The notes beneath the pieces are model-generated. The model ran no database searches. It saw only the letters and a program-made list of their open reading frames with translations, and had not been told where the DNA came from. The translations under genes were made by a program, and so were the position numbers. A stretch of DNA of 43,119 bases from a virus. Positions 1,633-33,481 of this stretch are shown here, piece by piece (position 1 is the first letter of the stretch; each line of letters starts with the position of its first letter). The stretch is taken from positions 1-43,119 of the IMG/VR virus record IMGVR_UViG_3300010287_000001. One strand, 5' to 3'.

Positions 1633-2172
1633 ATGGAGAATACTTTGAGAAGTTCACTCCCAGACCGCATGGGCGGTCGCACCTGTATAGTTTCAGAAAA
1701 CGCCTTGAGCATTGCTGAGGCTATGGCTCGCGAGGCGGCCTGCTATCACCCTATCCTGATTATGTGGAGAGATGCAGTCCTTTTCGATGGCTGCAATCTG
1801 ACCATCGACGAGTTTGCCGCCGCCACCGACAAGGCAACCCTCGACGCTTGCCGCCAGGAGGGATGGGCCATCGAACCGAACCCTGGAGGAACTATTGGAT
1901 CTGACAGCATCGATAATGGCATCAGGAACCATGTGAATCGGACGATGTATCGGCGATTGTTGGATTCTCGCCTTGACAGGGCGGTGTTTGAGTTGCTGTG
2001 TGCCATAGTCATGCACCGGCGCGGTTTGGGCGACCGTTCCTTGGGACTGGAGATCATAGAATTCCATTCCGCTGTTATCAATGCTCTATATACGCACATC
2101 AGAATCGATAGCAAGAGAGAGGGATCGACCAATGAACATAACCGAGATCGGCAAGCTGTTCTTCCCGGGTAG
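1633..2172 (+). CDS. Hypothetical protein (179 aa)
   Basis: ATG is preceded by GAGGAGGAG. No motif recognised. Confidence 0.5.
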   Translation: MENTLRSSLPDRMGGRTCIVSENALSIAEAMAREAACYHPILIMWRDAVLFDGCNLTIDEFAAATDKATLDACRQEGWAIEPNPGGTIGSDSIDNGIRNHVNRTMYRRLLDSRLDRAVFELLCAIVMHRRGLGDRSLGLEIIEFHSAVINALYTHIRIDSKREGSTNEHNRDRQAVLPG

Positions 2173-2656
2173 GACGCATTGGCGTGAGGGCGTGTGGTTT
2201 GACTACACAGCCATAGGCCCCGTGCTCGTGTTTGCCTTCAAAAACCCGTCTGACGAGGAAATCCTTGCTGCACGCAAGGGCAAGGTCGAGCTGGCACTAT
2301 ACGATGATCCTCCTGTTCTGTTCATCCTGCACCGTATCGAGGGTCTCGAGGATTGGTCGGACTGCCCCTTCTCGATCCGGATCTACGCCGAGCCTCCGCC
2401 GATGCCCGAGCAGGTGCCTGACGGCTCAGGCCTGGGTCTCTACATCGCACTGGTCGATGCGAACACTGGCATACTCCACGCGCAGAGGCTCGTGGGCACC
2501 TCGACCGAGTTCGCCAGGGAACTGCTCGCCGCGATCCACAGGCAGCTGGAGGCGCCGTTTTCTGAGGCAGCCTACCACGAACGAATCAACCACGTGTATC
2601 AGACTCAGACCACTGAACAGCTCTTGGAGAAAGCTGTTGCGAGACACAGGATATAG
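2132..2656 (+). CDS. Hypothetical protein (174 aa)
   Basis: The internal ATG at 2132 (MNITEIG) has SD GAGAGGGA. It overlaps the previous gene by 41 nt. Confidence 0.5.
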   Translation: MNITEIGKLFFPGRTHWREGVWFDYTAIGPVLVFAFKNPSDEEILAARKGKVELALYDDPPVLFILHRIEGLEDWSDCPFSIRIYAEPPPMPEQVPDGSGLGLYIALVDANTGILHAQRLVGTSTEFARELLAAIHRQLEAPFSEAAYHERINHVYQTQTTEQLLEKAVARHRI

Positions 2657-2666
2657 ATGTACATAG

Positions 2667-2693
2667 AAAAAAAGCCCGGCGCGATGCCGGGCT
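2667..2693. terminator. Bidirectional rho-independent terminator, strong on the minus strand
   Basis: A7 run + AGCCCGGC-gcgat-GCCGGGCT. On the minus strand the hairpin is followed by T7. It sits between convergent genes ending at 2656 (+) and 2703 (-). Confidence 0.8.
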
Positions 2694-2702
2694 CTTCACA
2701 TC

Positions 2703-3110
2703 TCATTCCTTCCCCCACCATTCCCAAAACCCCAGCCACTTCGGGATTGACACCGTCCACGGCGTCGAGAACTCCACGAACACCTGCGGAGCCTTTTCTG
2801 TCCTCACAGCCCCGCCGATGCTGACACACCAACCTCGCAGGAATAGCCAGTCCGGATACCAGTTGACCGACAGCTCGTAGCGACTCAGTGGCCTGGACAC
2901 CTTACTATACCTCGTCTGCATATCGAGGGTCAGGTATAGGTTGCTCGCCAGCTCGTAGTCGAGCGTCGAACCCGTCCGGATCTCGAGTACGCCCGCGTCG
3001 ACCATCACGCCGTAGTTGCGGGAGCCGGTGAGGTTGGCGGCCGACACCGAGGAGACACTAGCCATTAAAATGGCTACAAATAGGATACATGTTGCGGTCA
3101 AGCGTTTCAT
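2703..3110 (-). CDS. Secreted / envelope protein with a cleavable-type signal peptide, beta-rich, Trp-rich C-terminus
   Basis: N-terminus is MKRLTATCILFVAILMASVSSVSA|ANL. The start overlaps the upstream stop as ATGA. Confidence 0.6.
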   Translation of the reverse strand: MKRLTATCILFVAILMASVSSVSAANLTGSRNYGVMVDAGVLEIRTGSTLDYELASNLYLTLDMQTRYSKVSRPLSRYELSVNWYPDWLFLRGWCVSIGGAVRTEKAPQVFVEFSTPWTVSIPKWLGFWEWWGKE

Positions 3111-3454
3111 GCTTCAGCACCCCACCACTCCGCCCGCCTCTCTAAACTCCCGTCTGCTTCCGTCGCACAAGCCATCATCAATCGGCAGAACGCGTGGCCA
3201 AGGTGGTCGTCCTGTGTGTCGCCAGCGAAGGCCGCGAAGATGTGAGCCAGTGCGTGGTTCAGGTGATCCTCGCACGGGATCTTCCGCCAGTTGTCACGCC
3301 CGTAACGAGAGGCGCCATATTGAAGCACCTTGCCTAAGCGAATCATCGTCGGGGCGTCCAAGAGGTGGAATGCTGCCACAGCCTTGCTTTGCTTGCCACC
3401 CTGCTCGTTCTCGATTATTTCTGCGTCAGGACCTATGCCCTTGATCTCAGCCAT
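3107..3454 (-). CDS. DUF5664 / dATP-dGTP diphosphohydrolase N-domain-like protein
   Basis: GGKQSK..F.LLD...LGKVLQYGASRYGRDNWRKI...HLNHALAHI...GDTQDDHLGHAFCRLMMA matches that phage family pattern by eye. ATG at 3454 with a GGAGG SD is preferred over the ORF-track start. Confidence 0.6.
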   Translation of the reverse strand: MAEIKGIGPDAEIIENEQGGKQSKAVAAFHLLDAPTMIRLGKVLQYGASRYGRDNWRKIPCEDHLNHALAHIFAAFAGDTQDDHLGHAFCRLMMACATEADGSLERRAEWWGAEA

Positions 3455-3798
3455 TCCCTCGCCTCCATCCACAGAATCTTCAGCCATATGAAAGGCCAGA
3501 ACACCCATCCAGCTCTATCGTCGATGTATAGGTCAGCACTGATCTTGCGGCAGTCACCGCCATATTGCCGAATCCGCTCGGGTATGTTGTGATTGCAGGC
3601 GTCGAAACATATACCGTGCGACCACAGGAACCGCTTGGCGTGTCCCAGGGCTTGCCCTTCTCTACACGTCCATAGAATGAGGATATGGCTGCGCGATTGG
3701 AGCCACCGAAGCACAGGCTTTGCTGCGAAACGAAAAGGCCCGATGTCGGGCCAGCGGTTTTTGACTATCGTGCCGTCGAAGTCAACAGCGATTATCAC
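3433..3798 (-). CDS. HAD-superfamily phosphatase / nucleotidase-like protein
   Basis: N-terminal IIAVDFDGTIV (DxDGT motif I) and C-terminal YIDDR. GTG start with SD GGGGAGAGAGG. Confidence 0.6.
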   Translation of the reverse strand: MIIAVDFDGTIVKNRWPDIGPFRFAAKPVLRWLQSRSHILILWTCREGQALGHAKRFLWSHGICFDACNHNIPERIRQYGGDCRKISADLYIDDRAGWVFWPFIWLKILWMEAREWLRSRA

Positions 3799-3815: not shown

Positions 3816-4934
3816 TTAATAGTCATGCTCGATCACCCTGTAATACGGAATGAACGTGTTGTCGCACCGTTCGATTGTGCCCTCTCGGTCAACTGTCACC
3901 TGGACGATCCAGCCGCCCATGTGCGCAGCAAGTCGCTTTCCCTTCATCCAGCTCGACTGCGCCTGGAACGTGCCCGCCTCGAACGCATGGACGTTGCGAT
4001 AGAACAGATACATCGCCTTGTGATGGTGCCCGTTGAGCAGGATGTTCGGCTTCGTGCCGCCCTGCATGGACTCGATGTATTTCTGCAGGCTATAGCTGAG
4101 GGCGTATGCGGCGCCGTCAAGCGGATGATTCAGCTCCAAGATGCAGTTAGGCGTAAGGTAAACACGAGCGTTGAGCTGACCGAGATACTCCATGTCCTCC
4201 CGGGCGATATGGATCGCTTTCCCGATGTCATGCCCCGAGTTTTGAATGTGCGTGGCGTCATGATTGCCCAGGATGAAACGGGTCCGGATGCCCTTGCGCC
4301 GAGGCCAGCGGTCAATAATGTATTGCTCCTCCTCGTCCGCTGAGTGGAGAAACCGCTCATGTATGTGGCCTGGCCTACGAGAGTATATGCCCTCTGAGAG
4401 GTCACCTGGCACATAGACCGTTGGAACGCTCTCCCGCTCGCAGATGTCATAGAAGTGGCTGAGGTGGGTTGCTTGTTGGTATTTGCTTCCCCAGTGCGTG
4501 TCCGAAGCGACACCGAAACGGATCACTCGCCGCCCGTCCCAATCGTCGGTGTGCTCGCTGGTGGTAGGCTCCACAGTCGTAACGAGGAGCAGGACGCCTC
4601 CGGCCTCGGTGATGGTGTATCCCTGATCGGAGAGGTCTTGAGCCACGGCCATGAGGACACGCCTGGAGACTCCAAGCGTGTCAGTCAGCTCGTCTAGTCC
4701 GATGCCCATGCGCCTGCGCTTGGTCAACAGAGAGATGAGGCGGTCAGGCAAGGGCCGCTGGTCGACTGTCTCTCGCGTCTCCTGCTTGCCGAGCTTTCGC
4801 CTATACCGATACAGCTTGCTGTTGATCTGGGTGTAGGTCAGCCCTGTGCGCTCCTGGATCTGATCATATGACAGGCCCTGATCCCTCAGGGCCTGTAACT
4901 GCTCGCCACTCCAGTTGTCCGATGCTCGTGCCAC
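3816..4934 (-). CDS. Metallophosphoesterase (calcineurin-like) with N-terminal HTH / winged-helix domains
   Basis: Motifs FGVASDTHWG, VPGDLSEG, ILGNHDATH and LLNGHHHKA. The N-terminal ~120 aa carry two HTH-like segments. Confidence 0.75.
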   Translation of the reverse strand: MARASDNWSGEQLQALRDQGLSYDQIQERTGLTYTQINSKLYRYRRKLGKQETRETVDQRPLPDRLISLLTKRRRMGIGLDELTDTLGVSRRVLMAVAQDLSDQGYTITEAGGVLLLVTTVEPTTSEHTDDWDGRRVIRFGVASDTHWGSKYQQATHLSHFYDICERESVPTVYVPGDLSEGIYSRRPGHIHERFLHSADEEEQYIIDRWPRRKGIRTRFILGNHDATHIQNSGHDIGKAIHIAREDMEYLGQLNARVYLTPNCILELNHPLDGAAYALSYSLQKYIESMQGGTKPNILLNGHHHKAMYLFYRNVHAFEAGTFQAQSSWMKGKRLAAHMGGWIVQVTVDREGTIERCDNTFIPYYRVIEHDY

Positions 4935-5038: not shown

Positions 5039-5452
5039 TTAGGACGAGCTCTGCGAGTTTCCCGAGGAGACGACGCCCGCCTTCTTCAATGCCTCGAACT
5101 CACCGGACGCAGCGAATACGGCGATCAGCGCCTGCACAGCCGCAGCAAGAAGCGGCGTACCGCCCTGTGTAGCAGCGATAATCAGGCCTACTACGCCCAG
5201 CATCGCATTAACAAGCCAGATCAGACCAGAGTTGTTGAGCAGGGGCTCATCGCCAACCTTTATACTCTTTAGGAGCTGCAACAGCGCCATCTGGACGCCT
5301 GACCAAGCCAGGGTCACGCCGCCAAACGTGACCAACACCCCTTGCCACGGATCGTCCGCTTCGCCCTCAGCGGCCAGCACGACGAACGTCGCCAGCGACA
5401 ACAGAGCTGCCAAGACAACCAACACATAGACAATGCCACGATACTGTCTCAT
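5039..5452 (-). CDS. Multi-pass membrane protein, holin candidate
   Basis: Three to four hydrophobic spans. Lies directly downstream of the endolysin. SD GGGAGG. Confidence 0.5.
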   Translation of the reverse strand: MRQYRGIVYVLVVLAALLSLATFVVLAAEGEADDPWQGVLVTFGGVTLAWSGVQMALLQLLKSIKVGDEPLLNNSGLIWLVNAMLGVVGLIIAATQGGTPLLAAAVQALIAVFAASGEFEALKKAGVVSSGNSQSSS

Positions 5453-5497: not shown

Positions 5498-5911
5498 CTA
5501 ATAATCCTGTCCCGTCCTCATCATCCGCTCCAACCTCCGCCCTCTTTCACCCACCTGCCGATACCACCGACTGTTGACCATCTCGTCCGCAGCTGCCTCG
5601 TAGTCAGCTCGCTTCAATGCCTCGATCATCTTCCGGAACTTCGACAACCCTTGAACGCCGAGGTTAAACGCCATGTCGACAAGCACCTTTCTCCTGACCG
5701 GTCCTAACGCCCGGAACCAGTCGAACTGCTCCAATTGCGATGTAACCTCTGCGATGTCGTTGCGGAGGAGCATCATGGCCTCGTGGTGCGAGATCCCTTT
5801 GTCCTCCAGATTCCTGCCGACGCCGATCGTGAGCTTGCCCGCCGTGCAGCGGTATGGTCTCAGCCTCATCCCCTCATGGAGGATGAGCTGATCCTCGATC
5901 GAGTGCATCAT
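5498..5911 (-). CDS. Endolysin, T4-lysozyme-like (GH24) muramidase
   Basis: HEGMRLRPYRCTAGKLTIGVGRN fits the catalytic E-x8-(D/C)-x5-T signature. Start ATG 5911 overlaps the upstream stop (ATGA) and has SD GGAGGTGG. Confidence 0.85.
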   Translation of the reverse strand: MMHSIEDQLILHEGMRLRPYRCTAGKLTIGVGRNLEDKGISHHEAMMLLRNDIAEVTSQLEQFDWFRALGPVRRKVLVDMAFNLGVQGLSKFRKMIEALKRADYEAAADEMVNSRWYRQVGERGRRLERMMRTGQDY

Positions 5912-6132
5912 TGCCACCTCCGAGCGACAACACCAACGACCGCTGCCCATACGACCTGGAGGAAGGCGCCAACAGCCTCGATTCTGCTGACTCTGCTCTC
6001 GACCTTGTTGATGCGGCTGTGAACCGCCCCGAAGTCGTCGTTGGTGTCATCGACCAGCTTGTCCAGCTTGTATTCGATCCTGTCCAGTTGTTTGGCTATG
6101 AGATCCACTCGCCCGTTTTCCGTCACGTCCAC
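5908..6132 (-). CDS. XhlA-like lysis-associated membrane protein (coiled coil + C-terminal TM)
   Basis: 74 aa with an N-terminal heptad-like region and a C-terminal hydrophobic segment AVGAFLQVVWAAVVGVV. Sits at the head of the lysis cassette. Confidence 0.5.
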   Translation of the reverse strand: MDVTENGRVDLIAKQLDRIEYKLDKLVDDTNDDFGAVHSRINKVESRVSRIEAVGAFLQVVWAAVVGVVARRWQ

Positions 6133-6217
6133 CGCCCCCTGCCTGCGTCAATCAGTACACAACTAAGCCGCCCCGTGTGGAGCGGCTCTAGCACTTGTCT
6201 TGTTCTGTATCTATGAT

Positions 6218-6406
6218 TTAGTCAGCCCAACCCTCAGTGAGCGCAGCTTCTCTTCGGGTGACATCTCCCTGAGTGTGTTCAAATCTATCATCGTCCACAA
6301 CACTCTCCCAATCGTGATTGTGCTTGTCGGGTCGGTCTAAATCCAAACTAAGCTGCTGACTATGTGCAATCCCACCACCAAACGTGTGCACATGATTCGA
6401 ACGCAC
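6218..6406 (-). CDS. Hypothetical small acidic protein (62 aa)
   Basis: GTG start lies 6 nt after SD GAGGTGA. Follows the fibre paralogue with an 11-nt gap. Confidence 0.4.
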   Translation of the reverse strand: MRSNHVHTFGGGIAHSQQLSLDLDRPDKHNHDWESVVDDDRFEHTQGDVTRREAALTEGWAD

Positions 6407-6417
6407 GGCGCTTCACC

Positions 6418-7251
6418 TCACTCCTCCGACAACCATGAATTTTGGAACCCTCTGATCACCACATGCACCGAAGCCCGACCTTTTGTGGTTGTCGTAAATC
6501 GAATCCACTTCCACCCGGACCCAGTAGCTAAAAGAGTCACGTCCTTGCACAACTCGAACTCGTCAACGCCCGCCGGTGGCTCAGCCAAATCGGCAATCTT
6601 CACATAGGTACTCCGGTCATCCGAGTCGCTGAACCATAGATCAACACCCTTCGGCAGCCCATCTGCACTGATGTCGTCATAGATCCCATAGATCAATCCA
6701 TGAGAGTGTAGCAGCTCTTCCGAGGTAGTCGCGTGGCAACCACCACCCACCGCGGTCATTGTGTACGGGTACAGATACTCGAAATAGTGCCTGTGCTGTG
6801 GATCAGTCACAACGTGGTGGATCGATTCGCCCGTCTCTTCAGACTCCAGCATCCAGTGATTGCTGATAGAAATGTTGGTCAAGGCACTATCAGTGAATGT
6901 TCCCTGAAGAGCACCCCCAAGCTCATGCTTGTGATGAGGCAGATCAACGCCGTGGTAATGACTACAGTCAGCGGTATCCACTGCCGCATACGCTCTGTAT
7001 CGCATCCCCCTGACTGTCACTCTGATGTCGTGTAGCGTCATCCCCTCATCTATATAGACAGGGATCTCCAGCGGATGAGCTGAGTCGAACGTATCTACAA
7101 CGTTATAGGTGTCAACGACCGGGACCTTGTTCGCCGCTGCCTGCCCATAGCAACACACGGATAGCGCCAAGGTCACGCAAACCAGCAGGGCCATCAGTGT
7201 CAACCGCCTCACACAACCACCTCCCGCTTCTGCAGGAAGATTTCTACACAT
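6418..7251 (-). CDS. Signal-peptide/anchor-bearing paralogue of the tail-fibre distal (HxH-rich) domain
   Basis: Residues after AANK align with the last 277 aa of the 7750-11631 product. The N-terminus MCRNLPAEAGGGCVRRLTLMALLVCVTLALSVCCYGQA is signal-like. The start is uncertain (7299 GTG, 7251 ATG or 7194 ATG). Confidence 0.7.
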   Translation of the reverse strand: MCRNLPAEAGGGCVRRLTLMALLVCVTLALSVCCYGQAAANKVPVVDTYNVVDTFDSAHPLEIPVYIDEGMTLHDIRVTVRGMRYRAYAAVDTADCSHYHGVDLPHHKHELGGALQGTFTDSALTNISISNHWMLESEETGESIHHVVTDPQHRHYFEYLYPYTMTAVGGGCHATTSEELLHSHGLIYGIYDDISADGLPKGVDLWFSDSDDRSTYVKIADLAEPPAGVDEFELCKDVTLLATGSGWKWIRFTTTTKGRASVHVVIRGFQNSWLSEE

Positions 7252-7495
7252 CGGAAGGCGTTCCTGCTTCTGATCCGCCCTTTTGACCAAGTTCCTCACC
7301 CAATGCCTCGTAGAGTATCTGCTGATACCTCACTCTCTTGGCGGCCCACTCGTCCGCTTTGGCTCGATACATCTCCTCGTGTCGTTTGCACTGTTCAATG
7401 TGTGCATGGAGATCGTTAATGCTTAGGCTCTCCTCCACCTCTTGAGTTTCCTTGATCACAACCTGAGACCCCTGCCGCGAAACTTGTATACTCAT
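7244..7495 (-). CDS. Hypothetical protein (83 aa)
   Basis: ATGA overlap with the upstream gene. Helical, charged sequence. Confidence 0.5.
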   Translation of the reverse strand: MSIQVSRQGSQVVIKETQEVEESLSINDLHAHIEQCKRHEEMYRAKADEWAAKRVRYQQILYEALGEELGQKGGSEAGTPSDV

Positions 7496-7737
7496 CTGGT
7501 ATCAACCTCCTTGATTTGCTTCCGAATATGCGCTCTGAAGTGCTCGTCCAAAGCCACAGCGGTATCAGCAACCGCTCTCCTGGCTTCGTAGCCCGTAGAA
7601 TTGAAGGTGAAACTGCTTGTGCCATTCCGGTCGTGGACAATGATCACCGCACTCATGCCCTGTTCGATGGCCTCGGCTAGTCGATGTAACTTCTCAGCTG
7701 AACCCAATTCCCTTATTTCGTTAAGATCAACTTCCAT
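7492..7737 (-). CDS. Hypothetical protein (81 aa)
   Basis: ATG at 7737 lies 8 nt after SD AAGGAG and directly follows the fibre gene stop. Confidence 0.5.
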   Translation of the reverse strand: MEVDLNEIRELGSAEKLHRLAEAIEQGMSAVIIVHDRNGTSSFTFNSTGYEARRAVADTAVALDEHFRAHIRKQIKEVDTR

Positions 7738-7749
7738 ATTCCTCACTCC

Positions 7750-10700
7750 TTACGCAACCCAAGAATCTTGGAATCCCCGAATGACGATATGCACTGATAC
7801 ACGCCCTTTCGTCGTCGTGGTGAATTTCACCCACTTCCAACCTGTTTCTGGTTCGTCTACAGGGAGTGCCAGTTCTTTACACAATTGAAACTCGTCAACA
7901 CCTGCCCCTGGTTCCGAGAGATCGGCGACCTTTGTGTAACTACGACTCTCTGCGTTGGAAAACCAGAGATCAACGCCCTTGGGGACACCATCCGCACTCG
8001 TGTCGTCGAATATACCATAGATCAAATTGTGCGCGTGTGATCCATCGCTTGTGGTTGTCGGAATTGATCCCCCACCAGACCCGGTCACTGAATATGGGTG
8101 CAGATAGTCGAAATCATGGTAGTGTTGAGGGTCAGTCACTGAGTGATATGTTGGCCCGCCCTCTGAAGTTGTGCCACTAATACTAGCACTTCCGCTGCCG
8201 CTTGCTGACACTGAGTGTCCGTGATACCAGCCAGTTCCCCCAACTTGATCAGTGCTACCGGATACACTTACGTAGACTGTATCACTGCCAGAGAAGTCGT
8301 GTTCGTGGGGCCAGTGATTACCGATAGAAATGTTAGTTAAGGCCGAGTAAGTGTTTGTCCCTTGCAGGCTAGAACCTAACTGGTGCGTATGATTCGGTAT
8401 CACCACATCATGACTATGGCTCCCTGTTGCGACAGCCCCCGACGCGTACGCTCGATACCTCATACCCCTGGCCGTGATCCGCACATCGTGGATGGTCATG
8501 CCCTCGTCAATATAGATCGGGATTTCCAGCGGGTGCGACGAGTCGAAGCTGTCCATCACGTTGTAGGTGTCCACCACAGGCACCTGCTTGTAGTCGTCGG
8601 CCTCTATGACCTTTGCGCCCAGTTGTCCCGCATACTCCGCATCGCCCGTATTTGCGTCGAACCGAAACACGACCTTGCCGTCCGATTTTCGAGTCCACGT
8701 TTCCCCTTGGTCGTTGATTAGGAGCCGCCCACCTGTACCGTCGACCACCACCGGTGCGACACCTGCATTATACTGGCTACTTTCATTGAACAGAGGCGTG
8801 TCGACGCCAACAACGATCTGCTCAGTCTTGACTGACTCAATCTGCGCCGCCTGGATCTTGGCCTCATCCGTTGAGATCTTATTGGCCTCAAGCTTGATGA
8901 TGTGAGCCGAGTCGATAAAAGCCTCTTGCACTGCCGCAACGTACGCCTCGATTGACCCCGCTGCAAAATGATCGGCGAGAATGGCTTTAGATGCGATCTC
9001 TTGCGCTCCGACTGCCCCTGCCTCGATCATGCCAGCTTTGATCTTGCCTACGATCTGCTCGACGTCAACTGACGCGTCCCACTCGGTACCCGTACAGCGA
9101 TACAACACATGGTCGGTCGTGAGGACAACGAGGCTGCCTTCCGGGTAGTCAGGATTGGGCAGTGCGGGCAGGCTACTGAGTATGCGTGGAGGCGTCAGGC
9201 CCTGTGCAAACTCGGCCACACCTTCGATCTTGCGCGTACGAGCATAGACCGGCGTGGACTTCGAGCCCTCGCCGAGAGCGTCTGCCGCACTGACCTCAAT
9301 GCGGTAGCGAGTGCCGGGCGTGGCGTTCCAGGTGACGCGGCCAGCCGGATACGGCGCCTTTTGCGTCGCGCCAGTGGGATTGCCGCTATCGTCCACTGGC
9401 GTCATGTGCAAGTAGTAGGTCTCAATGTCGTTGTCTGCGACAGGCTGGATGTTGATCAAGAGGCATGAGAAGAACTCCGTCACTGCTGGCTGCGGCGGCG
9501 TGCTGGGTGTCGCGTTAGTCAGCGTTATGGGTGCGGCGTCCAGACTATAGACGCCCGCAGCCGAAATAGCCCTGATGTAGTATGTGTGGCTGCGTTTCGT
9601 AGGTGCCAGAGTCACGGTCGTCGCGTTGCCTCGCCATATCCGCCCCGCGGCCTCACCCCAGCCAGAATCAGACTCTCGAATCTCATACTCCGCAGCTCTG
9701 GCTGCCGGATGCCAGCGCAGGACGATCTCCCGCACGAATTCACAAGTATTCCAAACAGGTGTATCAGGAGGTGCCTGGTCGAGGTCCTCCGTGCGAATAT
9801 ACTGAGTTACCGCCGAAACCTCACGACTAGGCTCGGATCGCCTGCCGTCGGTGTCCACGTGGATCAGACGCGCGTAGTACCTCACGCCTGGTGCAAGGTT
9901 TGGAACGTCAAAACGCGTCCGTTTGCCTGAATCTACGAGCGTCGCACTACCAGGCTCAAAGCCCTTCGCCGTGCTGATGTGGCACTCTGTCACAGACCAG
10001 TTGGCGAGCTTCGGCGCGCTGCACCCGACCACCAGCCCCTTATACACGCCGCGGGCATACACGCCCACTGGCGTCAGCGGATCAACCGGCTTCGGCAATC
10101 GCCCTCGCCCATCCAGCACGCTCTGCAAATTGAGCCTGGCTCGTCCCAGGTCGAGGCGTACGGTCAAACCACCGGCGCTGTACTCTCGGCTCTCGGTCAT
10201 GATCCTAGTGGTGGTGATGATGCCTGTGTCAGGGTCAGCCACCCTCACCACGTCGCCCAGGCCATACTGAGGCTCGTTCTCGCAGTCAAACGCGGCCCGC
10301 ACCGAGAAGTGCGTCTTGGGCGTGTTGTGCGTGTCGAGGTAGTCCTGGGCTGCAGCCTCCAGCTCGGTCAAAGTCGAGGCGTCGAACTCTACGGCCTGCG
10401 GGTAGTCGCCATACGCACCTATGCTCTCGTCGTCCCTCAGCGTGACCTCCAGGCGATTGATCCCCTGACCAGGTCCTGTCGCAGTCAGGATATTGCACAG
10501 TTCCGAGTCATCGTCGCCTAGAGAGGTGACCTCGATGTTGGTGCCGGTCCTCAGCACGAACTCAGCCACGCGGTTGACACCCAGACTCTCGGCGATACTC
10601 AGCGCGCCGTTCCAGACTGCGAACTCCCAGCCATTCTGCTCGCAGGCGTCGATCAGCACCTGGAGTGCGTTGGCATGGTCAGCATCGAGGCCCTTGACAG

Positions 10701-11631
10701 TCACACCTGCCGAGGCGGGGATGTTACCGGCTACGAGGTGGCCCTGCGTTCGTCCGATCAGCTCTACGGCAAACACATACGGAGTCACGCCCACTGGTTG
10801 TCCGTTCGGGTCCTCCGACTCAGTATCGATCGTGTGGAGGTTGATCCGCACATATACCTGAGACTGGGTACCACCGAGGTAATACCCGATCTCCTCTGGC
10901 AAACCGCCGTCGATCTCGCTGGACCAGTTGCTGCCGTCATAGCTCACCTGGATCGAGGTCTGCACCACATCGTTGCTGTCGGCGGACCAGCGGACACGGT
11001 CCCAGCGCACGAAGTCCTTGATCTCGCCGCTGTCGAATCGAAGCGTGATGTGGCCGCTCTCATAGTAGCGACCATCAGCCTGCTTGGCCAACATAACCAC
11101 GCCTGGCTCAGTCGTGAGGTCGATATGCGAGCTGTCCACCATGTAGCTCTGCCACTGGCTCTGCGCCTTGACCCTGATCGTCTGCCAGCCGTCGAGGAGG
11201 TCACGAGCCACGTCTGCCAGATCCCAGCCGTCCCATACGCGGCCGTATTGTGCGGGTGTGATGTTGGACTCCAGTAGTATCTCCTCAGTCATCGCCTTGA
11301 TTGTGATGATCTGCCCTATCTCCCGGCCTGTGATGCAACCACTCGCCTTGAGCTGAGTGCCCTGGTAGACCTGCACAAACGCGGCGATCTGAGCATGTTG
11401 TGCCTTGTCGGGCCTGGTCGATACCGGCGCGGCTCCGACGGCGATCGGTTGCGTTGGCGAGAAGAACCCAAACAGCACATGCTCGGGCGTAATATACTCG
11501 CCCACAGTCTCACGAGGTATCTGGATGGTGATCTCCGTGGCCTGATTGATGCGCCGGGTGTAGCTCCACTGCACGTCAGGGAGGATCGCCTGTATCTGCC
11601 TATCTCTATCGAGTATGCGGATGTGATACAC
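7750..11631 (-). CDS. Tail tip / tail fibre protein (Tal-type N-terminus, FN3-like repeats, HxH-rich distal domain), 1293 aa
   Basis: The N-terminus MYHIRILDRDRQIQAILPDVQWSYTRRINQ resembles the siphovirus prophage-tail (ReqiPepy6 gp37-like) family. The central part has FN3-like segments. The C-terminal 277 aa carry six HxH motifs. GTG start with SD GGGAGGTG. Confidence 0.85.
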   Translation of the reverse strand: MYHIRILDRDRQIQAILPDVQWSYTRRINQATEITIQIPRETVGEYITPEHVLFGFFSPTQPIAVGAAPVSTRPDKAQHAQIAAFVQVYQGTQLKASGCITGREIGQIITIKAMTEEILLESNITPAQYGRVWDGWDLADVARDLLDGWQTIRVKAQSQWQSYMVDSSHIDLTTEPGVVMLAKQADGRYYESGHITLRFDSGEIKDFVRWDRVRWSADSNDVVQTSIQVSYDGSNWSSEIDGGLPEEIGYYLGGTQSQVYVRINLHTIDTESEDPNGQPVGVTPYVFAVELIGRTQGHLVAGNIPASAGVTVKGLDADHANALQVLIDACEQNGWEFAVWNGALSIAESLGVNRVAEFVLRTGTNIEVTSLGDDDSELCNILTATGPGQGINRLEVTLRDDESIGAYGDYPQAVEFDASTLTELEAAAQDYLDTHNTPKTHFSVRAAFDCENEPQYGLGDVVRVADPDTGIITTTRIMTESREYSAGGLTVRLDLGRARLNLQSVLDGRGRLPKPVDPLTPVGVYARGVYKGLVVGCSAPKLANWSVTECHISTAKGFEPGSATLVDSGKRTRFDVPNLAPGVRYYARLIHVDTDGRRSEPSREVSAVTQYIRTEDLDQAPPDTPVWNTCEFVREIVLRWHPAARAAEYEIRESDSGWGEAAGRIWRGNATTVTLAPTKRSHTYYIRAISAAGVYSLDAAPITLTNATPSTPPQPAVTEFFSCLLINIQPVADNDIETYYLHMTPVDDSGNPTGATQKAPYPAGRVTWNATPGTRYRIEVSAADALGEGSKSTPVYARTRKIEGVAEFAQGLTPPRILSSLPALPNPDYPEGSLVVLTTDHVLYRCTGTEWDASVDVEQIVGKIKAGMIEAGAVGAQEIASKAILADHFAAGSIEAYVAAVQEAFIDSAHIIKLEANKISTDEAKIQAAQIESVKTEQIVVGVDTPLFNESSQYNAGVAPVVVDGTGGRLLINDQGETWTRKSDGKVVFRFDANTGDAEYAGQLGAKVIEADDYKQVPVVDTYNVMDSFDSSHPLEIPIYIDEGMTIHDVRITARGMRYRAYASGAVATGSHSHDVVIPNHTHQLGSSLQGTNTYSALTNISIGNHWPHEHDFSGSDTVYVSVSGSTDQVGGTGWYHGHSVSASGSGSASISGTTSEGGPTYHSVTDPQHYHDFDYLHPYSVTGSGGGSIPTTTSDGSHAHNLIYGIFDDTSADGVPKGVDLWFSNAESRSYTKVADLSEPGAGVDEFQLCKELALPVDEPETGWKWVKFTTTTKGRVSVHIVIRGFQDSWVA

Positions 11632-11968: not shown

Positions 11969-12059
11969 ATCGGCTAAACCCCCTCTCTAAGACTAGTTTT
12001 TCCATATGTCACCTCGGCTCCGCCTCGGTGAAAAGAGCCAGAGGGCGGAGAATCAGAAA

Positions 12060-13265
12060 TCAGAGCTCAAGAACAAGGACGGGCCGCCACACGAAAGGCA
12101 CAAGCGTACTCGACGCGGCCTCGTAATACCAGAACCGGGCGGAACGGCCGCCACGGAGAGCGCGCCTGGCGGCATCGTCAATAAGCGTTTCTTGGCACCA
12201 TGTATATGTTGCGTTCCAGTGCCACGCCTGGTTATGCTTGCGCCGCCTCGCAGTGTTATTCAAATACTGTGAACCGCTTTGGTAGTCTTCGCTTTCGGGT
12301 TCTGGTGCGCCAATGAAAAACGGTCCGTCTTGGTCAACTCCGTTCATGACGTATCTGTCCCACTCGTTGGGCAACAGACCGCCGTCATAAACTTCACTTG
12401 AACCACCCAGCCTATTGGCTGGCCCTCCAGTTAGCACCCGGCACAGGTAGTTTTGCCCGTCTATAGTCTGTGTTTTGCCAAAGACAAAGCCACTGTTGTC
12501 AATGTGATTCCAGCTAAGATTTGCGACTAGCCCTCTGTCGGAAATCAGTATCAAGCTGGGTTTACCGTTGATTAGGTCGTAAAACATGTGCCACTGCAAT
12601 ACGTTTTCTGGGTTGCTGGAGGTATCGGTAATTGAGTAGCCGTCAAGATTTGTGCCTTGTCTGTGCGGTATATCCCCTGCGGCGGTCACAGATACACTTG
12701 CACCTGCTTCTTCAGTGACTAGCGTCTCCGAGACGGTCAAGGTTGTGCTTGTCCTGTTGATTAGTGTGTACGTGCCATCATTGCTATTACTACCACTAAC
12801 AGTGATTTGGTCGCCAACCCTAAGTATTTCTACGTCCCACAATACGTCTGTGATGGAGATTTGGTTGCCCTCGAAACTTACAGTTGTTCTCGTGGTTGCG
12901 TCATTTCGGAAAACAGGGAAAGACACGTCTCTGCGCCATGGTCTAAGCGGTCTCGGCAGTTCTGCGCCGTTGTAGGTTAGAGTACCAATCTTGACTAAAC
13001 CGCCGTATAGCGGAGCGGTAGCCATAGCAATTTCCCGCAATCTTGACCTGCTTTCTTCCGCTATACTTCCGTTAAGCTGAACTGGCCACGGGTTGCCACT
13101 GCTGATCGGATTCCCGTCAGCCCCCAAAATTACGCTATACACGCCGCCGTCCTGCCCCCGGACGCGTTCAAAAGTGCCATCGGCCTTCTGATACTGTGGC
13201 ACCGGGCAAGCTAGTTGCCCCGACGGTGGGTCGCCCTCGCGAATCAGTCTATCAGTCATGTTCAT
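12060..13265 (-). CDS. Putative receptor-binding / tail accessory protein (401 aa)
   Basis: ATG at 13265 (MNMTDRL) with SD AGGAGA. Located between Dit and Tal. The C-terminal ~150 aa (LCRVLTGG...NEWDRYV...FWYYEAASSTLVPFVWRPVLV) are vaguely C-type-lectin/DUF1566-like. Lower GC than neighbours by eye. Confidence 0.5.
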   Translation of the reverse strand: MNMTDRLIREGDPPSGQLACPVPQYQKADGTFERVRGQDGGVYSVILGADGNPISSGNPWPVQLNGSIAEESRSRLREIAMATAPLYGGLVKIGTLTYNGAELPRPLRPWRRDVSFPVFRNDATTRTTVSFEGNQISITDVLWDVEILRVGDQITVSGSNSNDGTYTLINRTSTTLTVSETLVTEEAGASVSVTAAGDIPHRQGTNLDGYSITDTSSNPENVLQWHMFYDLINGKPSLILISDRGLVANLSWNHIDNSGFVFGKTQTIDGQNYLCRVLTGGPANRLGGSSEVYDGGLLPNEWDRYVMNGVDQDGPFFIGAPEPESEDYQSGSQYLNNTARRRKHNQAWHWNATYTWCQETLIDDAARRALRGGRSARFWYYEAASSTLVPFVWRPVLVLEL

Positions 13266-13998: not shown

Positions 13999-16900
13999 CA
14001 CGCACCCCTCCCTCTGCGGCCTCCGCCCAGCCTCTCGGCGAGTCTGCTCTCTATCGCATCCATCATCTCGTTACCCAACTCATAGCCGCCGGTGGCTGTC
14101 GAATGTATGACGATGGCACCGGCCTCGAATACGATGTTGCCTCCACCCGCACCCACAGCGGCAAATTGCATGGTGTTGAAGTTAGGCAGCCTGGCGTCGA
14201 GAATCGAGCGGATGTCCTGAATCGGAGCGACGATAGCATTCAGGTTCGCCAGCGGCGCCATGAGGTCGGTGAGGATGTCCCGTGTCGGGCCAGTGATCTC
14301 ACTGACCTGGCGACCGCTGCCAGACGGCCTTGATGGAGCTGCCCCGCCTCCCGTGCCTCCTGATGGAGGTGTAGCCACGCCGCCAATACCGCCGAGTTTC
14401 TGTTGCAGCTCGTTTTGGACCGCCGCTAGTGCGATCAGGAGGCCTCCGATGACTATCCAGCCCAGCGGGTTCCACATGTTGGCGATGGCTTGGCTCACTA
14501 ACTCCGCGATACCCATCGCAGCGACGGCTGCGGTTAGGATATGGTTGATCGCGGTGCGGACGAACTGGAGTAAAATCTCCTCCCAGCTGCCAGTCCCAGT
14601 TAGCCACATCTCACCCATGGCTACGGCCATCTTCTCGAACGCTTCACCGATGCTCTGAGCGGCTTTCATCCACTTGTCACGCAGCCGGTCGGCCTGATCC
14701 AATGCCCTCTCCGTCACAGTTGCCACTGTGTGAGCCGCGAACTCCACCGCGGGGATGCCCTGTATGATGCCCTCGGTCCATGCCTCGACGACTCGCCGGC
14801 CGCCCTCGTCGATGTCGGAGAGTGGGCCTTTTGGCGGCGGCGACTGGCCGACAAGATAATCGGCCATCCCCTGAGCGAGGGTCTCCGCCATCTCGCGGAC
14901 ATCGCCTTCGCTGTCATAACCGGCCTGAATCCACGAATCGACGGTGGCGGTCATACCGTCGTACATGGCCTGTATCTGTCGGTTGATCTCGTCGTTGAGG
15001 ATATCGGTCCGCAGAGCCGACTGATCGGCGATGATGGCTGTCTGCTGTGCCTGTGCTTGCTCGATAGCGGCTGTCTGGCCCGTGATGGCACTGATGACAC
15101 CCTTCACGTCGTCGGCAACCTTGGTACCGAGGTCGCCAAACGCGACCTTGGTACCCTCGAGGGCGACCTGAATTCGCTTGGAGTTCTCCTCCAGCGCTTG
15201 TTGCAGCTCAGCTACACGAGCCTCGGATGCATCGGCGCTCTCTGCGATGCTGTCCCTGAGCCCCTTGAACTTGTCACCCAGGCCGAACGGCAACTTCTCG
15301 AGAATGCCGAGCTTCTCGATCATCGCGTTGACGGCGTTCAGGACGACGGATTTCATCTCCTCGAACGCGATGGAGATGTATAGACCTAGCTGCGTAACGT
15401 TTGCCTTGAGCAGCTCCCATGTGGCGACCAGGGCCGCTTTTACCTCATCCCAGGCCCGATACACCTCGTACGCAACCGCCGCCAGACCGACGATCGCACC
15501 GATGGTCGCGAGCGCCGGTGCGGATATGCCGGCTATCGCGGGAATGAGTGTTTTCATCACGAATCCACCGAGAGTAGCTAGGAACGGGAGCAAGACACCG
15601 ACTGCGGATGTAACCTTGCCGATTATGAGCGCTACCGGCCCGATGGCCGCCGCGAGAGCAGCCACGATGACTATCGTCCGCTGCGTCTCGGGATTGAGGC
15701 TGCCTAGCCAGTCAGCGAATTTCCCGATCTCCTTCACAACCGAGGTTATGGCCGGCAGGAGGATCTCGCCGAACGTGATTGCCACGTCAGTGAGCGAGTT
15801 TTTCATCATCTGGAGCTGGGACTCAGTCGTCGCATACCGCTGCTCTGCCTCTTTGGTTAGTGCTATGTTTTCGTTCCAGGCCTCCGTGCCTATGACGACG
15901 GCGTTCGCAAACACCTCTTGCGCACCGGCGGCTCGGAGCAGCGAGTCGCGGAGCCGAATCTCGGTGATGCCCATCTCCTCCAGGACGGCTATCGCCGAGA
16001 CGCCGCGCTCCTCCGCCGTGGCGAGACCTTCGATGAACGAGCCAATGGTGGCTACGGCGTCCTCCTTGAACGCCTCGCTGAACTCCTCTGCGCTCTGCCC
16101 AGTGACCGCAGCGAACTGCTCGAGGTCGCGGGCTGCGGTCACGTAGTCCTTGAGCTCAGTGCCGGTTAGGCCGATCGAGGCGGCCACTTCCTTGAAGGCT
16201 TTGGCGTCCTCGTTGGACAGAATCTCGAGGTCACGCAGGCTCCTGCCGGTCTGAGCAATAATCTCATTCGCTCTGGGGCCGATCTCAGACGCGAGCTGCA
16301 TCTGCATCATGAGCTTACTGAACGCCGAACCGCCGGCCTCGGCCCTGATTCCTACCGAGCTGAGTGCACCAGACAGGGCCATGATCTCGGCCTCTGCCAG
16401 TCCGACCTGAGCACCGGCACCAGCGAGCCTCAGACCCATCTCGACTATCTCAGCTTCGGTGGTGGCAAGGTTGTTGCCGAGAGCCACGACGGTCGCACCC
16501 AGACGGTCAAACTGGTCCTGTGGCATCTGCACGATGTTGGCGAACCGTGCCAGGTTGGTCGCGGCTTCCTCGGCTGTCAGGTTGGTGGCAACGCCGAGGT
16601 CGGTCATTGTGCGAGTGAAGCTCAGAATATGAGGAACAGCTATGCCAAGCTGACCAGCAGCTTCAGCGACGCCGGCGATCTCGGTGGCCGCTGCAGGGAT
16701 TTCCTTCGCCATGTCACGGATGCCCTGCTCGAGAGTGGCGAACTCTTCTTCGGACGCGTCGACGGTTTTCCTCACGCCGGCAAATGCCGACTCGAAATCA
16801 ATGGCACTCTTCCCAGCCGCAAAACCCAGTGCCGTGAGCGGAGCGGTCACGTTCATGGACCACTTCTTACCCACGTCGGTCAATTTCTTCCCGAGACCCT

Positions 16901-30438: not shown

Positions 30439-31301
30439 TACCGCTCCCTCCGCTCCTTGGCCCTTGCCTCCGCAATCTCCCTCCGGTAGCTAGAGGCCCG
30501 CATCAAGTGAATCGCACACATCTCGACTAACCTGTCCATGATCCGGGTGCCGACGGCCTGACCCAGCGCCGCCGGCGTCAGGTTGCTCGTCACGATCACA
30601 GGCCGCTCCATCCGGTATCGCTGGTCGATGATCGTGTAAAGTGTCGCCTCAGTCCACTCGGTGGGTTTCTCAGAGCCGAGGTCATCGAGGACGAGTAAGT
30701 CGCACCGCACCAGCTCCGAGATGAGCGCCTCCTCTGTGGTGTCGGCCTGTCGATTGTATGTCGCTCGCAGGCGCATCAGCAGTTCGGGCACGCTCTGGAA
30801 TATGACCGTGTGCCCCCGGCTCAGCAGCTCGTTGGCGACCGCTGCGGCCAGGTGCGTTTTTCCGCATCCCGTCGGGCCGCTGAACAGGAGTCCGAGGCCT
30901 CGATCTGGAGGCCATTGCTCGACGAACCTCTTGGCCGCCTGGTGTGCTGACTCGGTGCCGGGCCGCTCGACCCAGGCATCAAACGTGCTGCGTCGGAACC
31001 GTGGCCCCAGTCTAGACTGTCGGAATAGATCGTCGATCCGCTGCTGCCTTTGCCGAGCTTCGAATCGTCGCTGTTCCTCGTCCATCTGCTCTTTAGCCTG
31101 TTTTCGCCTGCCCGCACACTCAGGGCACCAGGCCGACCATATGCGCTTGCCGTTTGGGGACTCGGCCAGCAGCTTGATCTCGACACCGTCGGTCGTCCCA
31201 CACCCCATGCACTCTCTAGGAGCGTCGGGCGAGCTTGTCCCAGTCGTAGCCGTCATCCTCGGTATACGGTTGATGGCCTCTGTGAGCATTCCCACTGCCA
31301 T
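30438..31301 (-). CDS. DnaC/IstB-like AAA+ helicase loader with an N-terminal CxxC...CxxC zinc finger
   Basis: Walker A GPTGCGKTHLA and Walker B LLVLDDLG. ATG 31301 with SD AGGAGGTGA keeps the first Cys of the finger. Confidence 0.85.
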   Translation of the reverse strand: MAVGMLTEAINRIPRMTATTGTSSPDAPRECMGCGTTDGVEIKLLAESPNGKRIWSAWCPECAGRRKQAKEQMDEEQRRFEARQRQQRIDDLFRQSRLGPRFRRSTFDAWVERPGTESAHQAAKRFVEQWPPDRGLGLLFSGPTGCGKTHLAAAVANELLSRGHTVIFQSVPELLMRLRATYNRQADTTEEALISELVRCDLLVLDDLGSEKPTEWTEATLYTIIDQRYRMERPVIVTSNLTPAALGQAVGTRIMDRLVEMCAIHLMRASSYRREIAEARAKERRER

Positions 31302-33078: not shown

Positions 33079-33481
33079 GCCCTTGCACCTCCTCTCTGTC
33101 AAGCGCCTCGCGGAAACACTCTCCGCACGCACGCTCGGGGCAACGACTACCCAGCATCCTGGGAGGACAGCAGCTGTCGTCAAGCCAGCGCAAGATGGTC
33201 TCCTCCCGCCTCCGCAGCCTCTCGACCTCAGCCTCCGCCTTCAGAGCACGCTCGATGGCATGAGGCCAGCCCTCACGGGCTTCGGCGATAAAGTGCATGT
33301 TCTCGGTGGGCCTGTTCTCACCACGCGGACATGGATCGCCTGCGATACATATGCACCCCATCGACTCTACCTGATAGACCTCCATGCCGTCTGGACCGCA
33401 CGTCTCGGGAAGTGCGATCCACGGCCCCGGCGTCGCCTTCTTACATAGTTCTAAGTCTCTTAGCAGGTCACGCATGGTCAT
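33050..33481 (-). CDS. Ead/Ea22-like protein (ATPGPW motif)
   Basis: MTMRDLLRDLELCKKATPGPW, followed by a coiled-coil-like and Cys-rich C-terminus. Confidence 0.55.
   Translation of the reverse strand: MTMRDLLRDLELCKKATPGPWIALPETCGPDGMEVYQVESMGCICIAGDPCPRGENRPTENMHFIAEAREGWPHAIERALKAEAEVERLRRREETILRWLDDSCCPPRMLGSRCPERACGECFREALDREEVQGRGQDLDTVD

What the first reader, a model, noticed from the sequence alone, without database searches (positions are those of the whole stretch)
6418..7251. Stand-alone, signal-peptide-bearing paralogue of the tail-fibre distal domain
Seen in sequence:
- The last 235 aa of this product align colinearly with the last 277 aa of the 1293-aa tail protein (7753-8583).
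- Shared blocks include VPVVDTYNV.D.FDS.HPLEIP.YIDEGMT.HD.R.T.RGMRYRAYA, ALTNISI.NHW, VTDPQH.H, GVDLWFS and GWKW..FTTTTKGR.SVH.VIRGFQ.SW.
- The paralogue lacks one ~40-aa segment.
- Nucleotide divergence is substantial and of all substitution types.
- In place of the ~1000-aa tail-attachment part it has 58 aa with a basic n-region (CVRR), an 18-residue hydrophobic core and YGQA/AANK. This looks like a Sec (or weakly Tat-like) signal peptide or signal anchor.

Established knowledge: virion proteins assemble in the cytoplasm.

Inference: an exported copy is unlikely to be a virion component. It could mask or occupy the receptor on the lysogen surface (superinfection exclusion by a receptor-binding-domain decoy), or otherwise remodel the envelope. 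I know of receptor-blocking proteins, but not ones derived from the phage's own fibre tip.
Basis: partly seen in the sequence, partly recalled or inferred. Interest (0 to 1): 0.66.

Follow-up and report, generated by a model that had tools for sequence, protein, structure and literature searches.

The report
Exported copy of phage fibre tip
A temperate phage of an uncultured biogas-reactor Bacillota bacterium carries, between its tail and lysis genes, a second copy of its tail-fibre tip that has a secretion signal where the tail shaft should be, so it is probably sent to the cell surface rather than built into virions, perhaps to occupy phage receptors, though that function is untested.

Summary
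ORF 6418-7212(-) encodes 264 aa from a GTG start. Its residues 28-262 (57-291 of the 293-aa ORF) align with the last 279 aa of the 1293-aa Tal-type tail protein (54% identity, E 5e-98). One 43-aa gap separates them. The divergence is old and the gene is under purifying selection.

The N-terminal leader is 25-29 aa, not 58. It is a classical Sec-type signal peptide, and it is kept in a 68%-identical homologue that has a textbook cleavage site. Alternative genes found in the same slot are lipoproteins.

The domain is a rare phage fibre tip: a beta-sandwich plus an HxH "needle". Its only relative among solved structures is the T4 gp37 tip. No other signal-bearing member was found among 1.84 billion representative proteins.

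Export is well supported. Receptor masking or superinfection exclusion is plausible but untested. It is weakened for the phage's own receptor, because the paralogue differs from Tal exactly at the putative distal tip.

Unexpected: in at least 13 independent metagenome assemblies, the segment homologous to window 5848-7553 sits between repeats of the host's type I-B CRISPR array. This segment holds o83, the paralogue and a holin-like gene. It forms a 1.4-2.4 kb "spacer" that points the same way as array transcription.

The parts
6418..7212 (-). Paralogue CDS, 264 aa from GTG 7212 (stop 6418-6420)
   Evidence: ORF list. Start supported by the Shine-Dalgarno sequence, by the ATG of P0003 at the same position, by gene callers and by the cargo boundary.
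7138..7212 (-). Signal peptide, residues 1-25: MRR, then LTLMALLVCVTLALSVCC, then YGQA, with predicted cleavage before AANK
   Evidence: Kyte-Doolittle maximum of 2.71 over LMALLVCVTLALSVC. AF2 models a helix at residues 3-25. Conserved in P0001-P0003.
7217..7224 (-). Shine-Dalgarno sequence GGAGGTGG, 4 nt (7 nt from the GGAGG core) upstream of the GTG
   Evidence: Sequence. The same element precedes the ATG of P0003.
6982..7128 (-). N-terminal half of the beta-sandwich (residues 29-77)
   Evidence: AF2 pLDDT about 95. About 76% identical to Tal.
6694..6981 (-). HxH 'needle' segment (residues 78-173). The 43-aa deletion relative to Tal falls between residues 125 and 126 (about 6837/6838).
   Evidence: Alignment. 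Profile hit to the T4 gp37 tip 2xgf, E 1.9e-5. Low pLDDT as a monomer.
6439..6693 (-). C-terminal half of the beta-sandwich (residues 174-258)
   Evidence: AF2 pLDDT 85-97.
7753..8589 (-). Tal C-terminal fibre-tip domain (residues 1015-1293), the paralogous copy built into the tail protein
   Evidence: BLASTP.
7750..11631 (-). Tal-type tail tip protein, 1293 aa (Prophage_tail/Sipho_Gp37-like N-terminal part, fn3 domains)
   Evidence: Pfam and PHROGs.
7492..7746 (-). o84, an 84-aa protein downstream of Tal, conserved in related phage L018
7244..7495 (-). o83, an 83-aa acidic protein. Its stop lies 32 nt before the paralogue start. It always precedes the cargo slot.
6218..6406 (-). o62, a 62-aa ORF after the paralogue. 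Seen in the two phage-type copies (window/L019 and L017), absent from the array cassettes.
5908..6132 (-). o74, a coiled-coil protein with a C-terminal TM segment (weak holin PHROG hit). It forms the right flank of the cargo slot.
5498..5950 (-). Endolysin (Phage_lysozyme)
5039..5452 (-). 137-aa multi-TM protein, a likely holin
5848..7553 (-). Segment whose homologues occur as kilobase 'spacers' between host CRISPR repeats

Best explanation
The gene encodes a Sec-exported, non-virion copy of the phage's trimeric fibre-tip module. The module is a beta-sandwich 'collar' plus a metal-binding HxH needle.

A signal peptide replaces the roughly 1000-aa tail-attachment part exactly at the domain boundary. 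After cleavage, the domain is released on the outside of the cytoplasmic membrane of its Bacillota host. There it most likely binds a cell-envelope ligand of the kind that fibres of this phage family recognise.

The most likely consequence is receptor occupation. This would exclude related phages, or prevent loss of progeny on cell debris. It would be a phage counterpart of retroviral Env-mediated receptor interference.

Shown:
- the paralogy
- purifying selection
- a conserved signal-peptide-like leader
- the fibre-tip fold
- the position in a variable slot that otherwise holds lipoproteins

Inferred:
- actual export and cleavage
- trimerisation outside the cell
- the ligand
- the exclusion phenotype
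- the time of expression; there is no sign of an own promoter, so it is probably co-transcribed with the late tail and lysis genes
For: - Paralogy: 54% identity, E 5e-98.
- Selection: dN/dS is 0.09-0.22 among paralogues, and synonymous sites are saturated against Tal. Changes are dominated by third codon positions.
- Leader: MRR/MKR, then 13-18 hydrophobic residues, then CYA or GQA. It is conserved across 68%-identical homologues. The P0003 leader has a helix-breaking Pro at -6 and Ala at -1.
- The mature N-terminus equals the first residue of the Tal homology.
- Alternative cargo at the same start codon is a SnoaL_3/DUF4440 lipoprotein, MRRVVLVGLVLLVCVGLAGC. Another cassette carries a 280-aa lipoprotein.
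- Fold: the beta-sandwich is formed from the N- and C-terminal segments at pLDDT about 95, with the HxH segment between them.
- The only PDB relative is the T4 gp37 receptor-binding tip. The best BFVD matches are tail or minor structural proteins.
- All 28 remote relatives are C-termini of long fibre proteins or signal-less short proteins. The signal peptide is therefore a specific innovation.
- The gene sits directly after the tail-tip gene, like llp and cor (established knowledge).
- The phage is temperate: integrase and ImmA, and it is found integrated in a 135-kb host contig.
Against: - No signal-peptide predictor was available, so export rests on inspection and conservation.
- No promoter or terminator sets the gene apart from the late operon, so expression in the lysogen is not indicated.
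- The paralogue lacks 43 aa exactly where the distal, receptor-contacting tip should be by the gp37 analogy. The tip also varies among paralogues. It may therefore not compete for the receptor of the phage's own Tal.
- An HxH needle normally needs cytoplasmic chaperones (known for T4 gp37), and folding after Sec export is unproven.
- There is no similarity to any known exclusion or defence family.
- Only one complete phage with this arrangement is known. Related phage L018 lacks it.
Confidence: 0.42

Rival explanations
1. The exported fibre-tip module has another envelope role. It could be a lysogenic-conversion adhesin or lectin that alters aggregation or surface properties. It could also be an accessory of the adjacent lysis cassette that binds the wall.
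For: The export evidence is the same as for the best explanation. The gene lies immediately upstream of the holin-like gene, the lysozyme and the multi-TM genes. The endolysin has no wall-binding domain. The tip differs from Tal.
Against: No precedent is known to me for a fibre-tip domain acting in lysis. The slot holds unrelated lipoproteins in other cassettes, which fits a moron or exclusion slot better than a lysis component.
Confidence: 0.2
2. It is a second, stand-alone receptor-binding protein of the virion. On this reading the hydrophobic N-terminus is a docking or oligomerisation segment, not a signal peptide.
For: Stand-alone short members of the family exist, without a leader (P0014, P0016, P0024). 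The gene is in the tail module and probably late-expressed. The putative fibre chaperone-like small genes o84 and o83 lie just upstream.
Against: The leader has the n-h-c layout of a signal peptide. It has a basic start, a Cys/Leu/Val-rich core and small residues at -3 and -1. It diverges in sequence but not in character. At 25 aa it is too short for a baseplate-attachment domain. Lipoproteins replace the protein at the same start codon.
Confidence: 0.1
3. It is a silent or reserve cassette for host-range switching. Recombination with the Tal 3' end would swap the fibre tip, and the protein product itself would be irrelevant.
For: There are two diverged copies of the same module 0.5 kb apart in the same orientation. 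Both have lower GC than the rest of the genome, 0.52-0.535 against 0.576, as is typical of exchanged receptor-binding modules.
Against: Nucleotide identity is only 63.6% without long identical tracts, which makes a poor recombination substrate. The copy has its own strong Shine-Dalgarno sequence, a start codon and a conserved signal peptide. The leader is kept under selection for hydrophobic character.
Confidence: 0.07

Closest known systems
T5 Llp, phi80/N15 Cor and Streptococcus thermophilus TP-J34 Ltp (exported phage proteins that block the receptor or entry)
   Same: They are phage-encoded and exported. Llp and Cor are encoded next to the receptor-binding or tail-tip gene. The proposed effect is to occupy or mask the entry route.
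   Different: Those are small lipoproteins unrelated to the phage's own fibre. This protein has a Sec leader rather than a lipobox, and its mature part is a paralogue of the phage's own fibre tip. No sequence similarity was found. The phenotype is untested.
Retroviral receptor interference by Env-derived proteins (Fv4, Rmcf, Refrex-1-type truncated Env; soluble Env SU, PMC3265322, PMC12908037)
   Same: A copy of the virus's own receptor-binding module, detached from the particle-anchoring part, is sent through the secretory pathway and blocks the receptor.
   Different: These are eukaryotic systems with no homology. For the phage protein, receptor binding and interference are only inferred.
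T4 gp37 long-tail-fibre tip (PDB 2xgf)
   Same: Repeated HxH motifs on two antiparallel stretches, with profile match E 1.9e-5. The N- and C-terminal segments fold together at the base, and the chain reverses at the distal tip.
   Different: The base is a larger beta-sandwich, and the similarity is limited to the HxH region. gp37 is the cytoplasmically assembled end of a long fibre, whereas here one copy is stand-alone and carries a signal peptide.
Moron or accessory-gene slots between tail and lysis modules of temperate siphoviruses
   Same: A variable gene sits between conserved flanks (o83 and o74), with exchangeable cargo.
   Different: The cargo here is derived from a structural gene of the same phage. 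The whole slot has also been copied into host CRISPR arrays.

Membership tests
Sec-type (SPase I) signal peptide | Positively charged n-region | tested here: met
   MRR in the window, P0001 and P0002; MKR in P0003.
Sec-type (SPase I) signal peptide | Hydrophobic h-region of about 7-20 residues | tested here: met
   LTLMALLVCVTLALSVCC (18 residues; Kyte-Doolittle 15-residue maximum 2.71) and LTLATLLVCAVLT (13) in P0003. AF2 models a helix at residues 3-25.
Sec-type (SPase I) signal peptide | c-region with small residues at -3 and -1 | tested here: met
   G-Q-A|A in the window. S-P-V-W-C-Y-A|R in P0003, with Pro at -6. Judged by eye only.
Sec-type (SPase I) signal peptide | Positive call by a trained predictor, or experimental export | not testable with these tools
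   No SignalP or DeepTMHMM was available.
Bacterial lipoprotein (SPase II) | Lipobox [LVI][ASTVI][GAS]C | tested here: not met
   L-S-V-C and S-V-C-C in the window, P-V-W-C in P0003. The lipobox is met by the alternative cargos (LAGC, LSGC).
Tat signal peptide | Invariant twin arginine with a weakly hydrophobic h-region | tested here: not met
   RR in the window but KR in P0003. The h-region is strongly hydrophobic.
gp37-type HxH metal-binding fibre needle | Repeated HxH motifs conserved across the family | tested here: met
   H85/H87, H94/H96, H140/H142 and H169/H171 are invariant in alignment A1. H169/H171 are invariant and H140/H142 nearly so across 32 sequences.
gp37-type HxH metal-binding fibre needle | Detectable sequence relationship to a solved member | tested here: met
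   The profile of alignment A2 hits only 2xgf, E 1.9e-5, over the needle.
gp37-type HxH metal-binding fibre needle | Trimer with octahedrally bound metal ions | not testable with these tools
   Only a monomer prediction was possible, and the needle region has pLDDT below 55.
Receptor-masking superinfection-exclusion proteins (Llp/Cor/Ltp kind) | Exported to the envelope | tested here: inconclusive
   A signal peptide is inferred, with no experimental or predictor support.
Receptor-masking superinfection-exclusion proteins (Llp/Cor/Ltp kind) | Expressed from the prophage or early in infection | not testable with these tools
No promoter was predicted.
Receptor-masking superinfection-exclusion proteins (Llp/Cor/Ltp kind) | Reduces adsorption or DNA entry of the same or related phages | not testable with these tools
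   This needs a bench assay.
Receptor-masking superinfection-exclusion proteins (Llp/Cor/Ltp kind) | Sequence membership in a described family | tested here: not met
   No Pfam, PHROGs or PADLOC hit.
DGR template/variable repeat pair | Adenine-specific substitutions between two near-identical repeats | tested here: not met
   63.6% identity with all 12 substitution types.
Ordinary type I-B CRISPR spacer (for the array-borne copies) | Bounded on both sides by array repeats | tested here: met
Ordinary type I-B CRISPR spacer (for the array-borne copies) | Length within the array's 32-40 nt range | tested here: not met
   1441-2441 bp.

The most novel reading that the evidence does not exclude
The exported fibre-tip paralogue is a receptor-interference (exclusion) protein. 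The host has captured the o83-paralogue-holin-like cassette inside its type I-B CRISPR array, in several alleles and in the sense orientation. Read-through from the CRISPR leader would then express phage-derived receptor blockers. On this reading one locus would provide both sequence-specific immunity and surface exclusion.
Probability: 0.08. Interest if true: 0.9.

Novelty: new variant of a known kind. Interest (0 to 1): 0.62.

Why it matters
If the exported fibre tip blocks receptors, this would be the first phage example I know of in which superinfection exclusion uses a copy of the phage's own receptor-binding module. Retroviruses and their hosts use the same logic with Env-derived proteins.

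It would also give a simple rule for finding such genes: fibre-tip paralogues with signal peptides. The protein would be a ready-made soluble probe for the unknown receptor of an uncultured biogas-reactor bacterium.

The array-borne copies add a well-documented case to the scattered observations of kilobase 'spacers'. This case has many population variants, and it bears on how CRISPR arrays and phages exchange DNA.

Tried and rejected
- **Start codons 7299 and 7251** were rejected in favour of GTG 7212.
- **DGR or recent duplication** was rejected by the substitution spectrum.
- **Lipoprotein and Tat signals** were rejected for the paralogue.
- **Phage GenBank collection:** no hit.
- **GTDB species genomes:** no hit for the protein or for the CRISPR repeat. 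The host could not be named beyond 'Bacillota bacterium'.
- **Foldseek against the PDB:** nothing significant.
- **Tal homologues with a paralogue-type short tip:** none found, only 3 Tal-length relatives.
- **'Host chromosome' contexts of L001 and L012** were discarded, because roughly 100-N scaffold gaps flank the cassette there.
- **Test of selection on array-borne copies after capture** failed. The copies are DNA-identical across samples: 10 of 10 for one type, and 8 copies with a single synonymous difference for the other.
- **Contig L016** shows a repeat and a known spacer running on into a Tal 3' end. It has 0.9x coverage and frameshifts, and could be an assembly chimera through the 36-mer. 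It is not used as evidence.
- **Promoter and terminator scans** gave nothing above chance, in the phage or in the array.
- **The genome search on the host loci** was not possible.

Full report
**1. What is there**

The window is a complete 43,119-bp viral record with terminal direct repeats. It is a temperate siphovirus.
- It has a tyrosine integrase (41845-42978) and an ImmA-type protease.
- Its tail module includes a tape-measure protein, an SPP1-type Dit, and a 1293-aa Tal-like protein with Prophage_tail/Sipho_Gp37 and fn3 signatures.
- The same phage is found integrated in a 135-kb host contig (L020).

Downstream of Tal, on the minus strand, the gene order is:
- o84 (7492-7746)
- o83 (7244-7495)
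- the ORF of the finding
- o62 (6218-6406)
- o74 (5908-6132), a coiled-coil protein with a C-terminal TM segment and a weak holin hit
- a lysozyme (5498-5950)
- a multi-TM protein (5039-5452)

**2.

Residues 57-291 of the 293-aa ORF align with residues 1015-1293 of Tal. Identity is 54% at E 5e-98, with one 43-aa gap.

At the DNA level the two copies are 63.6% identical. All substitution types occur, and changes are mostly at third codon positions. Synonymous sites are saturated between them, while dN is 0.28. The duplication or import is therefore old, and both copies are kept by selection. Both copies have lower GC (0.52-0.535) than the genome (0.576).

**3. The true start and the leader**

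Four observations place the start at GTG 7212.
- A GGAGGTGG Shine-Dalgarno sequence lies just upstream.
- The 68%-identical homologue P0003 has an ATG at the same position behind the same Shine-Dalgarno sequence.
- Gene callers on identical contigs give 264 aa.
- DNA homology to cassettes with unrelated cargo ends at 7207-7212.

The leader is thus MRRLTLMALLVCVTLALSVCCYGQA|AANK. In P0003 it is MKRLTLATLLVCAVLTSPVWCYA|RVPV, a textbook Sec signal with Pro at -6 and Ala at -1. The leader has diverged in sequence (pN 0.35) but not in character.

The predicted mature N-terminus is the first residue that aligns with Tal. It is not a lipobox, and it is not a convincing Tat signal.

**4. What the domain is**

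A search of 1.84 billion representative proteins gave only 28 relatives. Nearly all carry the domain at the C-terminus of 400-1800-aa fibre-like proteins. The few short ones have no hydrophobic leader.

AlphaFold2 gave the following (mean pLDDT 71):
- an N-terminal helix at residues 3-25
- a confident beta-sandwich built from residues 29-77 plus 174-258
- a low-confidence middle segment (78-173) that carries the conserved HxH motifs

A profile of the family hits one solved structure only: the receptor-binding tip of T4 gp37 (2xgf, E 1.9e-5), across its iron-binding HxH needle. BFVD fold matches are tail or minor structural proteins. PDB Foldseek gave nothing significant.

By analogy with gp37 (established structure), the chain runs out along a trimeric needle and back, so the distal tip is in the middle of the sequence. 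That is where the paralogue lacks 43 aa relative to Tal, and where the paralogues differ from each other. This step is inference.

**5. The slot**

In related DNA, the stretch between o83 and o74 holds different genes that start at the same start codon.
- Three alleles of the paralogue: the window type with P0001 (89% identity), P0002 (84%) and P0003 (68%).
- A SnoaL_3/DUF4440 lipoprotein (MRRVVLVGLVLLVCVGLAGC...) followed by a 124-aa protein.
- In one case, a reverse-oriented 280-aa lipoprotein.

A related phage (L018) has Tal-o84-o83 followed instead by adaptor-like and fibre genes, with no paralogue. So this is a variable accessory slot that favours exported proteins.

**6. Mechanism proposed**

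The best-supported reading is that the protein is exported and is not a virion part. It acts on the envelope through the ligand-binding capacity of a fibre tip. Receptor occupation is the most economical function, either as exclusion of related phages or as protection of progeny from debris. This reading fits three things:
- the position next to the tail-tip gene, as with llp and cor (established knowledge)
- the lipoprotein alternatives in the slot
- the retroviral precedent of Env-derived interference (PMC3265322, PMC12908037)

Several points count against a simple self-decoy:
- the different tip
- the lack of any sign of lysogen-specific expression
- the unproven folding of an HxH needle after Sec export

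I put the full explanation at 0.42. Export alone I put at about 0.8.

**7. Unexpected context**

All copies of P0001 and P0003 whose surroundings could be read lie inside a chromosomal CRISPR array, not in phages. The exceptions are L001, L012 and L015, where the surroundings are masked or missing.

The segment homologous to window 5848-7553 contains:
- the last 19 codons of o84
- o83
- the cargo
- o74
- the first 35 codons of the lysozyme

This segment is bounded on both sides by the 30-nt repeat GTTTTGGAGTTACCTATGAGGGTTTGAAAC. Ordinary 32-40-nt spacers sit around it.

The array belongs to a type I-B-like locus with the order cas7-cas5-cas3-cas4-cas1-cas2-leader-array. The cassettes lie near the degenerate trailer repeat, next to host AP-endonuclease and GlnS genes, more than 120 spacers from the leader. 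They point the same way as array transcription.

At least 13 independent assemblies show them, including k=141 contigs, in many haplotypes:
- one to three cassettes per array
- cassettes separated by zero to three ordinary spacers
- lengths of 1441-1442, 1507, 1777 and 2441 bp

Ordinary spacers of these arrays match the window phage, for example 40/40 at 30597-30636 and 35/36 at 4332-4367. Their upstream flanks are TTA, TCA, TTG or CCA. This is therefore the phage's host lineage.

The cassette ends are identical among cassettes while the interiors differ. This favours one capture followed by duplication and by replacement of the interior through recombination with infecting phages.

The same arrays also hold long spacers of 150 nt and 147 nt. 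The 150-nt one begins with the very 35 nt of the ordinary spacer next to it. This points either to spacer-guided recombination with phage DNA or to an adaptation event with a correctly set PAM-proximal end and an unset distal end. Spacer-guided recombination is a process documented in staphylococci (Varble et al. 2019, as cited in PMC8616872).

Earlier notes of this scan describe kilobase spacers in other CRISPR types. This case adds population-level variation.

Array-borne copies are DNA-identical across samples. Their intactness therefore says nothing about selection, and I do not count the capture as evidence for the exclusion function.

**8. Verdict**

Export is well supported. The decoy function is attractive but untested.

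As a kind, this is a new variant of exported phage exclusion or moron proteins, because it derives from the phage's own fibre tip.

Noticed in passing
L002:2478-3918; L003:1137-2578; L007:1960-3401; L013:191-1697 and 1924-3700; L014:718-3158; L025:342-1848 (homologous to window 5848-7553): Kilobase phage fragments of 1441-2441 bp (o83, an exported cargo gene, the holin-like gene, and cut ends of o84 and the lysozyme) sit exactly between repeats of a chromosomal type I-B CRISPR array. They are in the sense orientation and near the trailer. There are one to three per array, with different cargo alleles, and they appear in at least 13 independent assemblies.
   Followed up: partly
L005 spacers 111-113 (7540-7869 and next); L006:6594-6843; L041:810; L055:3345; L045:591: The same arrays hold long spacers of 150 nt and 147 nt that contain a small hydrophobic phage ORF. 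The 150-nt spacer starts with the same 35 nt as the ordinary spacer next to it, and in L005 it is present twice in tandem with one SNP.
   Followed up: partly
window 30597-30636, 4332-4367, 33154-33190, 14333-14368, 3429-3465, 14074-14110: Ordinary spacers of the host arrays match this phage with 0, 1, 2, 2, 3 and 4 mismatches respectively. The flanks on the leader-proximal side are TTA, CTC, CCA, TTG, TCA and TTA, which looks like a type I-B PAM.
   Followed up: yes
L013:2178-2720 and L024:1668-2138: The alternative cargo at the paralogue's start codon is a SnoaL_3/DUF4440 lipoprotein (lipobox LAGC). In L013 a 124-aa protein without family hits follows it.
   Followed up: partly
L014:718-3158: The 2441-bp cassette has a different left end, inside a gene fragment rich in Cys motifs. 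It holds a reverse-oriented 280-aa lipoprotein. Many ordinary spacers of other array haplotypes match it with 0-2 mismatches, which would be self-targeting if both were in one cell.
   Followed up: no
L016:1-1137: A 0.9x-coverage contig has the end of a CRISPR repeat and the known spacer GTGGATGGGG...GATGGT. It runs straight on into a frameshifted Tal 3' end and o84. It is either a further long spacer or an assembly chimera through the 36-mer.
   Followed up: partly
window 6001-9000 and 12001-13000: GC falls to 0.52-0.535 across both fibre-tip copies and across the 441-aa gene between Dit and Tal, against 0.576 for the genome. This suggests imported modules.
   Followed up: no
L018:3178-10994: The related phage (IMG/VR 3300038957_000082) has Tal-o84-o83 followed by an SU10-adaptor-like protein, a 611-aa protein and a collar-domain fibre, and no paralogue. 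o84 and o83 therefore belong with Tal and not with the cargo.
   Followed up: partly
L001:9612-9708 and 10939-11033; L012:9480-9550: Runs of about 100 N flank the cassette in the two large GCA_900198705.1 records. The apparent host gene neighbourhoods there are scaffolding joins and should not be trusted.
   Followed up: yes
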